From the IMG/VR virus record IMGVR_UViG_3300023543_000090: a stretch of DNA of 5,343 bases, one strand, 5' to 3'. The notes below the pieces were generated by a model. The model was given only the letters and a program-made list of their open reading frames with translations. It ran no database searches and had not been told where the DNA came from. The translations under genes and the position numbers were made by a program. Below are positions 1,858 to 5,343 of the stretch, one piece after another. The DNA comes from a virus (taxonomy: Duplodnaviria; Heunggongvirae; Uroviricota; Caudoviricetes). Each line of letters starts with the position of its first letter. Position 1 is the first letter of the stretch.

Positions 1858-4800
1858 ATGGGTAAAGGCAGCAGTAAGGGGCATACCCCGCGTGAAGCGA
1901 AGGACAACCTGAAATCCACGCAGTTGCTGAGTGTGATCGATGTCATCAGCGAAGGGCCGATTGAAGGTCCGGTGGATGGGTTAAAAAGCGTGCTGCTGAA
2001 CAGTACGCCGGTGCTGGACAGTGAGGGGAATACCAATATCTCCGGTGTCACGGTGGTGTTCCGGGCAGGTGAGCAGGAGCAGACACCGCCGGAGGGGTTT
2101 GAATCCTCCGGCTCCGAGACGGTGCTGGGTACGGAAGTGAAATATGACACGCCGATCACCCGCACCATCACGTCGGCAAACATCGACCGTCTGCGCTTTA
2201 CCTTCGGTGTGCAGGCACTGGTGGAAACCACCTCAAAAGGGGATCGGAATCCGTCGGAGGTCCGCCTGCTGGTTCAGATACAGCGTAATGGTGGCTGGGT
2301 GACGGAAAAAGACATCACCATTAAGGGCAAAACCACCTCGCAGTATCTGGCCTCGGTGGTGGTGGATAACCTGCCGCCGCGCCCGTTTAATATCCGGATG
2401 CGCAGGATGACGCCGGACAGCACCACAGACCAGCTGCAGAACAAAACGCTCTGGTCGTCATACACCGAAATCATCGATGTGAAACAGTGCTACCCGAACA
2501 CGGCACTGGTTGGCGTGCAGGTGGACTCGGAGCAGTTCGGCAGCCAGCAGGTGAGCCGTAATTATCATCTTCGCGGGCGCATTCTGCAGGTGCCGTCGAA
2601 CTATAACCCGCAGACGCGGCAATACAGCGGTATCTGGGACGGAACGTTAAAACCGGCATACAGCAACAACATGGCCTGGTGTCTGTGGGATATGCTGACC
2701 CACCCGCGCTACGGCATGGGGAAACGTCTTGGTGCGGCGGATGTGGATAAATGGGCGCTGTATGTCATCGGCCAGTACTGCGACCAGTCGGTGCCGGACG
2801 GCTCTGGTGGCACGGAGCCGCGCATCACCTGTAATGCGTACCTGACCACACAGCGCAAGGCGTGGGATGTGCTCAGTGATTTCTGCTCGGCGATGCGCTG
2901 TATGCCGGTATGGAACGGGCAGACGCTGACGTTCGTGCAGGACCGACCGTCGGATAAGGTGTGGACCTATAACCGCAGTAATGTGGTGATGCCGGATGAT
3001 GGCGCGCCGTTCCGCTACAGCTTCAGCGCCCTGAAAGACCGCCATAATGCCGTTGAGGTGAACTGGATTGACCCGAACAACGGCTGGGAGACGGCGACAG
3101 AGCTTGTGGAGGACACGCAGGCCATTGCCCGTTACGGTCGTAACGTCACGAAGATGGATGCCTTTGGCTGTACCAGCCGGGGGCAGGCACACCGCGCCGG
3201 GCTGTGGCTGATTAAAACAGAACTGCTGGAAACGCAGACCGTGGACTTCAGCGTGGGCGCAGAAGGGCTTCGCCATGTGCCGGGCGATGTCATTGAAATC
3301 TGTGATGATGACTATGCCGGTATCAGCACCGGCGGGCGCGTGCTGGCGGTGAACAGCCAGACCCGGACGCTGACGCTCGACCGTGAAATCACGCTGCCAT
3401 CCTCCGGCACCACGCTGATAAGCCTGGTTGACGGTGAGGGTAATCCGGTCAGCGTGGAGGTCCAGTCCGTCACCGACGGCGTGAAGGTAAAAGTGAGCCG
3501 TGTTCCTGACGGTGTTGCTGAATACAGCGTATGGGGGCTGAAGCTGCCGACGCTGCGCCAGCGCCTGTTCCGCTGCGTGAGTATCCGTGAGAACGACGAC
3601 GGCACGTATGCCATCACCGCCGTGCAGCATGTACCGGAAAAAGAAGCCATCGTGGATAACGGGGCGCACTTTGACGGCGACCAGAGCGGCACGGTGAATG
3701 GTGTCACGCCGCCAGCGGTGCAGCACCTGACTGCCGAAGTCACCGCAGACAGCGGGGAATATCAGGTGCTGGCCCGCTGGGACACGCCGAAGGTGGTGAA
3801 GGGCGTGAGCTTCCTGCTTCGCCTGACCGTGGCAGCGGACGACGGCAGTGAGCGGCTGGTCAGCACGGCCCGGACGACGGAAACCACATACCGCTTCAGG
3901 CAACTGGCGCTGGGGAACTACAGGCTGACAGTCCGGGCGGTAAATGCGTGGGGGCAGCAGGGCGATCCGGCGTCGGTACCGTTCCGGATTGCCGCACCGG
4001 CAGCACCTGTCACGATTGAACTGATACCAGGGTATTTTCAGATAACAGCGATCCCGAAACTGGCTGTATATGACCCGACGGTGCAGTTTGAGTTCTGGTT
4101 CTCGGAAAAGCGGATTGCGGATATCAGGCAGGTTGAAACCACAGCCCGCTATCTTGGCACGGCGCTGTACTGGACATCTGCCAGTAGCAATATTAAGCCG
4201 GGTTATGATTATTACTTTTATATCCGCAGCGTGAATACCGTTGGTAAATCGGCATTTGTGGAGGCCGTCGGTCGGGCGAGCGATGATGCGGAAGGTTATC
4301 TGAATTTTTATAAAGGGTTGATCAATAAAACGCATCTCGGCAAGGAGCTACTGGAAAACTTTGAGCTGACGGAAGATAACGCCAGCAAACTGGAGGAGTT
4401 TTCGAAAGAGTGGAAGGACGCCAACGATAAGTGGAATGCCATGTGGGGCGTCAAAATTGAGCAGACCAAAGACGGCAAACATTATGTCGCGGGTATTGGC
4501 CTCAGCATGGAGGACACGGAGGAAGGCAAACTGAGCCAGTTTCTGGTTGCCGCTAACCGTATCGCGTTTATTGACCCGGCAAACGGGAATGAAACGCCGA
4601 TGTTTGTGGCGCAGGGCAATCAGATATTCATGAACGACGTGTTCCTGAAGCGCCTGACGGCCCCCACCATTACCAGCGGTGGAAATCCACCGGCATTTTC
4701 CCTGACACCGGACGGAAAGCTGACTGCTAAAAATGCGGATATCAGTGGCAGTGTGAATGCGAACTCCGGGACGCTCAACAATGTCACGATTAATGAGAAC

Positions 4801-5256
4801 TGTCAGATTAAGGGGAAACTGTCAGCCAATCAGATTGAAGGCGATATTGTCAAAACGGTCAGCAAGTCTTTCCCCCGCACGAACAGTTATGCCAGTGGCA
4901 CCATCACGGTAAGAATCAGTGATGATCAGAAATTTGACCGGCAGGTCATGATACCGCCAGTGTTATTCCGCGGTGGTAAGCATGAGAATTTCAACAGTAA
5001 TAACCAACAGTCATACTGGTATTCAACCTGCCGGTTAAGAGTGACCCGCAATGGTCAGGAGATTTTTAATCAGTCCACGACGGATGCTCAGGGCGTATTT
5101 TCCTCAGTTATAGATATGCCTGCCGGACAGGGGACGCTGACACTGACATTCACCGTATCTTCATCAGGAGCGAATAACTGGACACCAACAACCAGTATCA
5201 GCGATCTGCTGGTTGTGGTGATGAAAAAATCCACAGCAGGTATCAGTATCAGCTGA
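1858..5256 (+). CDS. J: Tail tip / central tail fibre host-specificity protein J (gpJ family), 1132 aa
   Basis: Uninterrupted 3399-nt ORF in frame 1, ATG 1858 to TGA 5254..5256. The N-terminus [28 protein letters not shown]... matches lambda J as I recall it, and the length (1132 aa) is the same. GGAG at 1846..1849 sits 8 nt upstream of the ATG. Position after L-K-I is as in lambda. Confidence 0.95.
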
Positions 5257-5274
5257 ATTTTATAACCCAGAACG

Positions 5275-5298
5275 GGCGTCAGAAATGACGCCTTTTTT
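5275..5298 (+). terminator. Rho-independent terminator downstream of J (tJ-like)
   Basis: Perfect 7-bp stem GGCGTCA (5275..5281) / TGACGCC (5286..5292) with a GAAA tetraloop (5282..5285), followed directly by T6 (5293..5298). It starts 19 nt after the J stop. Confidence 0.7.
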
Positions 5299-5322
5299 AT
5301 TGCAGAAAAGCGAGAGGTAATT

Positions 5323-5343
5323 ATGCGTAAACTTTATGCCGCC
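5323..5343 (+). CDS. lom: Probable 5' end of a lom-like outer-membrane protein gene (Ail/Lom family); only 7 codons fall in the window
   Basis: ATG at 5323 followed by codons for MRKLYAA, which matches the start of the lambda Lom signal peptide as I remember it. GAGG at 5314..5317 is 5 nt upstream. It lies immediately downstream of the J terminator, as in lambda. The stretch is far too short to confirm by itself. Confidence 0.4.

What the first reader, a model, noticed from the sequence alone, without database searches (positions are those of the whole stretch)
4020..5343. Abrupt drop in GC content over the 3' third of J and into the lom region, suggesting a mosaic module junction
Hand counts on sampled 60-nt lines give about 60-67% GC in central J (for example 3781..3840 is about 67%) but about 38-48% from roughly 4020 onward (4201..4260 about 38%, 4981..5040 about 38%). 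A compositional boundary inside one ORF is the signature of a recombinationally exchanged module; in J-family proteins the distal part carries receptor specificity. The counts are approximate and taken from a few lines only.
Basis: seen in the sequence. Interest (0 to 1): 0.5.

Follow-up and report, generated by a model that had tools for sequence, protein, structure and literature searches.

The report
GC step inside mosaic phage J gene
The GC drop is real and falls where the conserved hub of a lambda-like phage's tail-tip protein J gives way to its exchangeable fibre part, but the whole lambda family shares it and the receptor-binding module (a known OmpC-binding variant) starts about 800 bases further on, so this is ordinary, already understood phage mosaicism.

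Summary
GC falls from 59.4% to 48.5% at a maximum-likelihood change point at nt 4014 (support 3976-4184), far beyond block-shuffle expectation. The window is the L-K-I-J-lom tail-tip region of a lambda-like coliphage. The step lies at codon ~716 of J, the FNIII-1/FNIII-2 domain border, where the hub ends and the central fibre begins.

It is not specific to this sequence. All 14 relatives examined, including lambda and Stx-phage J genes with saturated synonymous divergence, have a change point at 4014-4066. About 58% of the GC difference follows from amino-acid composition; the rest is synonymous (GC3 0.74 to 0.58).

The distal third is not one module but at least three segments:
- 4003-4365: a minority FNIII-2 allele.
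- 4366-4800: shaft and prism, of the same lineage as the hub.
- From ~4800: an RBD cassette 151/151 identical to the solved "A8 gpJ", an OmpC-binding variant, and shared nearly unchanged with an Stx1 phage whose J backbone is otherwise diverged.

The low GC is an island. In the 99%-identical relative, lom is 55.8% GC.

The mosaic-junction reading is therefore partly right: a junction does sit at the step, but the receptor module begins elsewhere. Both phenomena are already known, so interest is low.

The parts
1858..5256 (+). Gene J (1132 aa): tip attachment protein / central tail fibre of a lambda-like siphophage.
   Evidence: The ORF is listed. Pfam domains are in lambda gpJ order: Phage-tail_3, FNIII-A_GpJ, Ig_J, Ig_J_second, Phage_Tail_Tip, Ig_GpJ_C. 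It is annotated gpJ in the 99.1% relative. Residues 601-1131 align 1:1 to solved lambda gpJ 8iyk.
1858..4002 (+). GC-rich proximal part of J (aa 1-715): hub domains plus FNIII-1. GC is 0.60 and GC3 is 0.74.
   Evidence: Searches give the composition. dS is 0.05-0.22 against lambda-like relatives. The composition matches the upstream tail genes K and I, both 0.59.
3976..4184 (.). Support interval of the GC change point (maximum likelihood at 4014). It covers the Pfam Ig_J (610-714) / Ig_J_second (716-818) border; codon 716 begins at nt 4003.
   Evidence: The GC3-only change point is at codon 710 [687-720] and the GC1+2-only change point at codon 717 [708-820]. The published soluble fibre construct gpJ713 starts at residue 713 (PMC11101478).
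4003..4365 (+). FNIII-2 segment (aa 716-836) carried as a minority allele. It has two highly diverged patches (4004-4083 and 4294-4362) and the lowest GC in J (0.48, GC3 0.55).
   Evidence: The alignment is. dS is 1.1-2.3, 0.26-0.47 and 0.9-1.9 for its three sub-segments against lambda-like J. Identity is bimodal in E. coli genomes: 199 records at >=95% against 4236 at 80-90%. The allele occurs with three different RBD types.
4366..4800 (+). Alpha-helical shaft plus beta-prism central straight fibre (aa 837-981), of the same lineage as the hub. It contains the indel hot spot at about 4361-4400 and, at 4721-4800, the conserved crossover stretch preceding the RBD.
   Evidence: dS is 0.09-0.20 against Turner, Z1322, lambda and 434. 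Indels are visible. Both lambda and Stx1_8100 are 95% identical to the window in 4721-4780. Domain names are from PMC11101478.
4801..5256 (+). Receptor-binding domain cassette (aa 982-1132), the 'A8' OmpC-type allele. GC is 0.47.
   Evidence: It is 151/151 identical to PDB 9wca 'A8 gpJ 713' and about 45% identical to the lambda RBD. dS is 0.01-0.02 against Turner, Z1322 and Stx1_8100. Informative sites switch from 29/9 to 1/81 at about 4800. It is >=99% identical in 1213 E. coli records. OmpC use by A8 gpJ is from PMC11338833.
5274..5303 (+). Intrinsic terminator after J (8-bp stem, then a T-run), within the 66-nt AT-rich J-lom spacer.
   Evidence: Found by the scan. A terminator is annotated at the homologous place in phages 434 and 21.
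5323..5343 (+). First 21 nt of lom (Ail/Lom outer-membrane protein gene).
   Evidence: The coordinates are transferred from the annotation of pCAVP367-48.

Best explanation
The window is the tail-tip region (L', K, I, J, start of lom) of a lambda-like temperate coliphage. The GC step at nt ~4003-4032 lies at the border between FNIII-1 and FNIII-2 of gpJ. There the hub part, which must fit gpL, gpI, gpH and the tail tube, ends, and the protruding central fibre (FNIII-2, helical shaft, beta-prism, receptor-binding domain) begins.

Two layers produce the step.

1. A family-wide layer, shown here. Every E. coli/Shigella lambda-type and Stx-type J gene examined drops in GC at this border. Part of this is because the fibre part is richer in Asn, Lys, Ile and Phe and poorer in Arg, Pro and Val. 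Part is because its synonymous sites are less GC-rich.

2. A lineage-specific layer, also shown. This J carries two exchanged cassettes with especially low GC3. One is a minority FNIII-2 allele (4003-4365) whose left edge sits on the domain border. The other is the A8-type RBD (from ~4800).

Inferred mechanism: homologous or homeologous recombination between co-resident lambdoid prophages and infecting phages. Crossovers fall in short conserved stretches at domain borders, for example aa 955-981 before the RBD. This reshuffles fibre segments independently of the hub, so fibre segments circulate in a wider, less GC-rich gene pool than the co-adapted head-tail module.

Functional consequence: by identity to the experimentally characterised A8 gpJ, this phage's tail tip should bind OmpC rather than LamB.
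For: - Identity of the region: Pfam domains and synteny; 94.7% identity to lambda over 1-4814.
- Step is real and significant.
- Same change point, 4014-4066, in all 15 sequences, including Stx-type J with dS 0.8-1.0 throughout the hub.
- Amino-acid composition explains 0.065 of the 0.112 GC difference. The GC3 difference is 0.164 against a null of 0.033+-0.026, reached in 0 of 2000 shuffles. It is significant in all 8 relatives tested.
- Xenorhabdus J homologues (~45% aa identity) have no step, with differences of -0.02 to +0.01. The protein architecture alone therefore does not force it.
- FNIII-2 allele.
- RBD cassette.
- VT1-Sakai has a breakpoint at ~4000, Stx2c_04E077 at ~3600-3640 and cdtI at ~4300.
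- 78% of pairwise identity-shift calls lie in the distal 37% of J.
- Literature: domain order and gpJ713 (PMC11101478); the natural chimera junction at aa 964 and OmpC use by A8 (PMC11338833); lambda's GC3-rich structural half (PMC2266997).
Against: - The cause of the family-wide synonymous component is not established. Rare third-position variants show the same strong S->W bias on both sides of the border: 106:24 in the hub (GC3* 0.41, CI 0.30-0.50) and 24:6 in the distal part (GC3* 0.33, CI 0.12-0.51). This gives no evidence for different substitution regimes, and it cannot separate 'historical difference, slowly decaying' from 'maintained by selection or continued import'.
- The GC3-only change point is well placed in the window (codon 710) and in phi21 (725). 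It is diffuse or shifted in Turner (977), lambda (wide interval) and the Stx types (657-670). The synonymous layer is therefore allele-dependent rather than a sharp universal border.
- The breakpoint census counts non-independent pairs and also picks up local conservation differences.
- OmpC binding is inferred from sequence identity to A8, not tested for this phage.
Confidence: 0.78

Rival explanations
1. The step is purely a protein-level effect. The fibre domains need a different amino-acid composition from the hub, and the nucleotide composition simply follows. No recombination history is involved.
For: - The step sits on a domain border.
- It is shared by all E. coli-type relatives.
- 58% of the GC difference is reproduced when synonymous codons are shuffled within J. 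FYMINK residues rise from about 19% to 31%.
Against: - The GC3 difference of 0.164 was never reached in 2000 synonymous shuffles, and it is significant in 8 of 8 relatives.
- Xenorhabdus homologues with the same architecture to about aa 930 show no step.
- Saturated dS patches and discrete allele classes begin exactly at the border.
Confidence: 0.12
2. One reading: the whole 3' third of J (from ~4020) plus lom is one recently imported low-GC host-range module.
For: - Low GC runs from 4014 to the end of the window.
- The distal part does carry receptor specificity.
Against: - Segment 4366-4800 is as close to lambda-like J genes as the hub is (dS 0.09-0.20).
- The parental switch to the Stx1_8100/Turner type happens at about 4800.
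- The FNIII-2 allele and the RBD allele assort independently.
- lom is 55.8% GC in the sibling.
- The step exists in relatives with quite different distal alleles.
Confidence: 0.04
3. The step reflects translational selection: structural genes of lambda use GC3-rich, host-preferred codons, and this pressure is relaxed in the distal part.
For: Lambda's structural half has elevated GC3 and CAI, which has been attributed to translational selection (PMC2266997).
Against: - Both parts are one ORF on one mRNA, made in the same amount, so expression level cannot differ across the border (inference).
- Rare variants are equally S->W biased on both sides.
Confidence: 0.05
4. The step is a chance fluctuation in base composition.
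Against: - The LLR is 23.9 against a maximum of 12.5 in 500 block shuffles.
- The step is reproduced at the same place in 14 other sequences.
Confidence: 0.01

Closest known systems
Bacteriophage lambda gpJ (tip attachment protein J / central tail fibre; PDB 8iyk, 8xck)
   Same: Same length (1132 aa), same Pfam domain order and same gene neighbourhood. It is 94.7% nucleotide-identical over window 1-4814. It has the same GC change point in window coordinates, at 4032.
   Different: The RBD (aa 982-1132) is only about 45% identical. The FNIII-2 segment is a different allele (74-78% aa identity in aa 716-738 and 67% in aa 813-836). Lambda's step is shallower (0.588 to 0.528, LLR 7.2) because its LamB-type RBD is 55% GC.
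A8 gpJ, a natural OmpC-recognising gpJ variant used for engineered lambda particles (Brodel et al., Nature 2024, PMC11338833; PDB 9wca/9wcb 'A8 gpJ 713')
   Same: The window's aa 982-1132 are 151/151 identical to the A8 chain. The published graft point, lambda aa 964, lies in the same conserved stretch (window 4721-4800) where natural crossovers are seen here.
   Different: The solved and engineered protein is a lambda/A8 chimera. Here the cassette sits in a natural J with a non-lambda FNIII-2 allele. OmpC use was not tested for this phage.
Host-range hybrids of lambdoid phages (for example lambda h434; J C-terminus determines receptor: LamB for lambda, OmpC for 434)
   Same: The same principle applies: the 3' end of J is exchanged by homologous recombination, with the break at window ~4814 for both lambda and 434. 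A lambda h434 hybrid genome is among the hits.
   Different: The window's RBD belongs to neither the lambda nor the 434 allele class (45% aa identity to each). Receptor assignments for lambda and 434 rest partly on my own knowledge and partly on PMC11338833.
Segmental GC / GC3 heterogeneity of the lambda genome (GC3-rich structural left half; Lucks et al. 2008, PMC2266997; classical 1960s work on segmental base composition of lambda, recalled from memory)
   Same: The GC-rich part of the window (L, K, I, J hub) is the tail end of that GC3-rich structural block.
   Different: Published descriptions are gene-by-gene. Here the first drop is located inside J, at the FNIII-1/FNIII-2 border, and composition recovers in lom and the 5' part of stf. 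This is a refinement, not a new phenomenon.
Ig-like/FN3 domains on phage structural proteins as horizontally exchanged accessory modules (Fraser et al. 2006, recalled from memory, not checked here)
   Same: The exchanged 4003-4365 segment is an FN3/Ig-like domain (Pfam Ig_J_second) with discrete allele classes.
   Different: In gpJ, FNIII-2 is an integral part of the closed tail tip, anchored by the helical shaft (PMC11101478), not a dispensable decoration. No function of the allele difference is known.

Membership tests
Lambda gpJ tip attachment protein family | Domain order: hub (Phage-tail_3, FNIII-A), two FNIII/Ig domains, tail-tip fibre, C-terminal Ig-like RBD. | tested here: met
   All six Pfam families are found above their cut-offs, in order (E 1e-34 to 1e-43). 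Residues 601-1131 align to 8iyk.
Lambda gpJ tip attachment protein family | Gene neighbourhood L-K-I-J-lom-stf in a lambda-like tail module. | tested here: met
   Pfam Phage_tail_L, JAB+NlpC/P60 (K) and Lambda_tail_I lie upstream. lom and stf lie downstream in the 99.1% relative.
A8 / OmpC-type gpJ receptor-binding allele | RBD sequence matches the characterised A8 gpJ. | tested here: met
   151/151 identical residues to PDB 9wca chain J, residues 278-428.
A8 / OmpC-type gpJ receptor-binding allele | Infection or delivery depends on OmpC and not on LamB. | not testable with these tools
   Shown experimentally for the A8 chimera in PMC11338833. For this phage it is inferred by identity only.
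Mosaic module junction (recombination breakpoint) at the GC boundary | Statistically significant compositional change. | tested here: met
   LLR 23.9 against a maximum of 12.5 in shuffles.
Mosaic module junction (recombination breakpoint) at the GC boundary | Divergence or nearest relative changes abruptly at the boundary. | tested here: met
   dS goes from 0.05-0.22 to 1.1-2.3 at codon 716 against all lambda-like relatives. There are discrete allele classes. VT1-Sakai has a parental switch at about 4000.
Mosaic module junction (recombination breakpoint) at the GC boundary | The compositional boundary is specific to the recombinant lineage and absent from relatives lacking the imported segment. 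| tested here: not met
   All 14 relatives, with different distal alleles, have the change point at 4014-4066.
Mosaic module junction (recombination breakpoint) at the GC boundary | The compositional shift is present at synonymous sites, not only through amino-acid content. | tested here: met
   GC3 difference of 0.164 against a null of 0.033+-0.026, 0/2000.
Single host-range module spanning the distal third of J and lom | Uniform ancestry of 4020-5343, distinct from the hub. | tested here: not met
   Segment 4366-4800 shares the hub's ancestry. The FNIII-2 and RBD alleles assort independently. lom is 55.8% GC.

The most novel reading that the evidence does not exclude
The intragenic GC3 step at the FNIII-1/FNIII-2 border, which persists in J lineages whose synonymous sites are saturated relative to each other, is not a decaying historical trace. 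It would instead be actively maintained. One route is that the fibre segments are continually redrawn from a separate, lower-GC gene pool shared beyond lambda-like phages. The other is selection on synonymous sites within one mRNA, for example slower elongation that aids co-translational trimerisation of the fibre. Either way, J would be a clean natural case of two compositional regimes held apart inside one ORF.
Probability: 0.15. Interest if true: 0.4.

Novelty: already known. Interest (0 to 1): 0.15.

Why it matters
It matters little for discovery. Mosaic J genes, swappable C-terminal receptor-binding domains and lambda's GC-rich structural block are all established, and the RBD here is identical to one already solved and used in engineered particles.

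The practical value is in annotation:
- This J should be read as an OmpC-type (A8) host-range allele, not a LamB-type one.
- The natural crossover stretches mapped here (codon ~716, ~813-836, ~955-981) are sensible graft points for engineering gpJ chimeras.

The one mildly interesting residue concerns the GC3 step inside a single ORF. It cannot be explained by expression level, which constrains the translational-selection explanation offered for lambda's compositional halves.

Tried and rejected
1. Chance was rejected by block shuffles.

2. The step as specific to this window was rejected, because all relatives share it.

3. The step as forced by protein architecture was tested on distant homologues. 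Xenorhabdus J genes show none and Edwardsiella shows a weak one, so it is rejected as a sole cause.

4. Low GC continuing into lom as a moron-like island was rejected, because lom and the 5' part of stf are 55-65% GC in the sibling and in lambda.

5. I tried to decide whether the two compositional states are at different equilibria by polarising rare third-position variants.
   - The first version was confounded by recombinant tracts.
   - The cleaned version shows the same S->W excess on both sides, with wide intervals. The result is inconclusive.

6. Chi sites as a cause of clustered breakpoints: there are none in the window on either strand.

7. The 562-aa antisense ORF (2647-4335) was considered as a possible hidden gene and rejected.
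   - It is in exact codon register with J, so its stops correspond to the sense codons TTA, CTA and TCA.
   - Those codons are simply avoided over 566 codons of the GC3-rich part. The open run differs in length among relatives (705 codons in lambda, 331-351 in Stx types).

8. The genome-contig scan mostly returned lambda DNA contaminating unrelated assemblies. Only the Xenorhabdus, Edwardsiella, Escherichia and Shigella loci were used.

9. A literature search for the structure paper on A8 gpJ found nothing in the held library.
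Full report
**What the window is.**
The 5343-nt window carries, on the + strand, the 3' part of L (to 480), K (to 1228), I (1126-1797), J (1858-5256, 1132 aa), a 66-nt spacer and the first 21 nt of lom. The Pfam hits for J are the six lambda gpJ families in order. Ig_J covers aa 610-714, Ig_J_second 716-818, Phage_Tail_Tip 845-972 and Ig_GpJ_C 1008-1132.

The closest record is a 47.6-kb linear "plasmid" of E. coli CAVp367, evidently a lambda-like phage genome, at 99.1% over the whole window. Phage Turner is 95.5% identical. Lambda itself is 94.7% identical, but only over 1-4814. 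Related J regions occur in 4677 of 5426 complete E. coli genomes.

**The observation.**
The GC drop is real.
- GC is 0.594 for 1-4019 and 0.486 for 4020-5343.
- The maximum-likelihood change point is nt 4014 (support 3976-4184). The log-likelihood ratio is 23.9, against a maximum of 12.5 in 500 shuffles of 60-nt blocks.
- All codon positions contribute: GC1/GC2/GC3 go from 0.60/0.46/0.74 to 0.48/0.41/0.58.

The window ends too early to show that the low GC is an island. In the 99%-identical relative, lom is 55.8% GC and the 5' part of stf is 55-65%. Only the spacer (39%), which holds the J terminator at 5274-5293, stays low.

**Where the step falls in the protein.**
Codon 716 begins at nt 4003, which is the border between the two FNIII/Ig domains. 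The GC3-only change point is at codon 710 [687-720] and the GC1+2-only change point at codon 717 [708-820].

[quoted passage not shown] The soluble fibre fragment used for structure work starts at residue 713 (PMC11101478). The step therefore separates the hub side from the fibre side of J.

**The step is family-wide.**
I aligned 14 relatives to the window: lambda, 434, 21, Turner, cdtI, mEp460, several "Lambda_" isolates, one prophage and four Stx phages. Every one has its GC change point at 4014-4066 in window coordinates, and the 300-nt GC profiles nearly superimpose. This includes Stx-type J genes whose hub differs from the window at dS 0.8-1.0. The step therefore cannot be the trace of an exchange peculiar to this lineage.

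**What the step is made of.**
Shuffling synonymous codons within J, with the protein kept fixed, reproduces 0.065 of the 0.112 GC difference. The fibre part is richer in N, K, I and F and poorer in R, P, V and D. The remainder is synonymous: the GC3 difference is 0.164 against 0.033+-0.026, and no shuffle out of 2000 reaches it. The synonymous excess is significant in all eight relatives tested and is weakest in lambda and Stx1a_10314.

Protein architecture alone does not force it. Xenorhabdus J homologues (44-45% identical, alignable to about aa 930) show differences of -0.02 to +0.01, and Edwardsiella shows 0.06.

**Mosaic structure distal to the step.**
Segment-wise divergence from the lambda-like relatives:

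| J residues | dS | aa identity | Note |
|---|---|---|---|
| 1-715 | 0.05-0.22 | 97-99% | hub + FNIII-1 |
| 716-738 | 1.1-2.3 | 74-78% | first diverged patch |
| 739-812 | 0.26-0.47 | 91-95% | |
| 813-836 | 0.9-1.9 | 58-67% | second diverged patch |
| 837-981 | 0.09-0.20 (Turner, Z1322, lambda, 434) | 96-99% | same lineage as the hub |
| 982-1132 | 0.01-0.02 (Turner, Z1322 prophage, Stx1_8100); saturated vs lambda and 434 | ~100% (98-100%); 45% vs lambda and 434 | RBD |

The alignment shows the first patch starting at 4005-4008, just after codon 716, with mostly GC-to-AT differences.

The 4003-4365 segment is a discrete minority allele. It is >=95% identical in 199 E. coli records and 80-90% identical in 4236. 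It is found combined with at least three different RBD types.

The RBD cassette is >=99% identical in 1213 records. Informative-site counts put the window's switch from lambda-like to Stx1_8100-like at about 4800 (29/9 to 1/81). The crossover lies in the conserved stretch 4721-4800, which both parents share at 95%.

Other lineages break elsewhere:
- VT1-Sakai at about 4000, exactly at the step.
- Stx2c_04E077 at about 3600-3640.
- cdtI at about 4300.
- Stx1_8100 at about 4700.

In a rough census over 276 pairs of 24 J genes, 78% of abrupt identity shifts fall in the distal 37% of the gene. The pairs are not independent, and some calls reflect local conservation rather than recombination.

**Function of the distal cassette.**
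The window's aa 982-1132 are 151/151 identical to PDB 9wca "A8 gpJ 713", and only weakly similar to the lambda RBD (323 against 104 bits). A8 is a natural gpJ variant that was grafted onto lambda gpJ at aa 964. It delivers DNA to delta-lamB cells through OmpC and works on most of 23 OmpC variants (PMC11338833). By identity, this phage's tip should bind OmpC. This is an inference and was not tested here.

**Why the synonymous component exists.**
This remains open. Lambda's structural half is known to be GC3-rich, and this has been attributed to translational selection (PMC2266997). Expression level cannot differ between two parts of one ORF, so that explanation does not account for the intragenic step (inference).

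I polarised rare third-position variants in the lambda-like clade, after masking recombinant tracts. They are strongly S->W biased on both sides: 106:24 in the hub (implied GC3* 0.41, CI 0.30-0.50) and 24:6 distally (GC3* 0.33, CI 0.12-0.51). There is thus no evidence for different substitution regimes, but the distal counts are small.

The data fit the following picture, without proving it. The hub co-evolves with the GC-rich head-tail module, while fibre segments are repeatedly replaced from a broader pool with lower GC. In line with this, the lowest GC3 values are in the two exchanged cassettes (0.55 and 0.53, against 0.62 for the lambda alleles).

**Verdict.**
However, the step itself is an old, shared property of the gene. 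Mosaic J genes, C-terminal host-range swaps and lambda's compositional heterogeneity are all established, and the RBD is identical to one already solved, so novelty is "already known" and interest is low.

Noticed in passing
window 2647-4335, minus strand: A 562-aa antisense ORF lies inside J. It is in exact codon register with J, so its stop codons correspond to the sense codons TTA, CTA and TCA. These are absent over 566 codons of the GC3-rich part and reappear in the distal part (9 of 13 occurrences lie after codon 719). The open run varies among relatives: 705 codons in lambda and 331-351 in Stx types. It is most likely a by-product of codon usage, not a gene.
   Followed up: partly
window 4340-4440 (J aa ~828-861, helical shaft): This is a length-polymorphic hot spot. 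Phages 21, cdtI, VT1-Sakai and the Stx1 phages carry three extra blocks (21 + 42 + 21 nt, 28 aa) relative to the window and lambda, and the surrounding sequence is almost unalignable (22-60% identity). The helical shaft therefore comes in a short and a long form.
   Followed up: no
loci L015-L017, L024-L028 and many short loci: Lambda-type J sequences (89-99% identity) turn up in assemblies labelled Neobacillus, Pseudomonas, Shewanella, Desulfosporosinus, Leeuwenhoekiella, Kitasatospora, Bradyrhizobium and others. They are often on ~48.5-kb or very short contigs with coverage near 1x. This looks like lambda DNA contamination (control or ladder DNA) in public genome assemblies.
   Followed up: no
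L005 (NZ_CP145143.1, pCAVP367-48): The closest relative of the window is deposited as a 47.6-kb linear 'plasmid' of E. coli CAVp367, yet it carries a complete lambda-like tail module (H, M, L, K, I, J, lom, stf). It is probably a phage genome (induced prophage or linear assembly) recorded as a plasmid.
   Followed up: no
L037, L056, L075, L080 (Shigella flexneri and E. coli chromosomes): These J homologues have extreme internal mosaicism or decay. L037 is 98% identical over aa 1-491 and its reading frame then stops at aa 520. L075 is 41% identical over aa 1-557, 95% over 564-654 and 77% over 648-806, then 28%. Several have interrupted reading frames and so look like pseudogenes in defective prophages. 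VT1-Sakai J is likewise annotated as two truncated CDS.
   Followed up: no
window 1126-1228: K and I overlap by about 100 nt when the long I start (ATG 1126, 223 aa, as in lambda) is used. PGAP-annotated relatives instead start I at about 1225, giving 190 aa. The start-site annotation is inconsistent across records.
   Followed up: no
window 1201-1650 (3' end of K and the I gene): cdtI and mEp460 drop to 53-85% identity here while staying at 91-98% on both sides. This is another exchanged patch in the tail-tip module, outside J.
   Followed up: no
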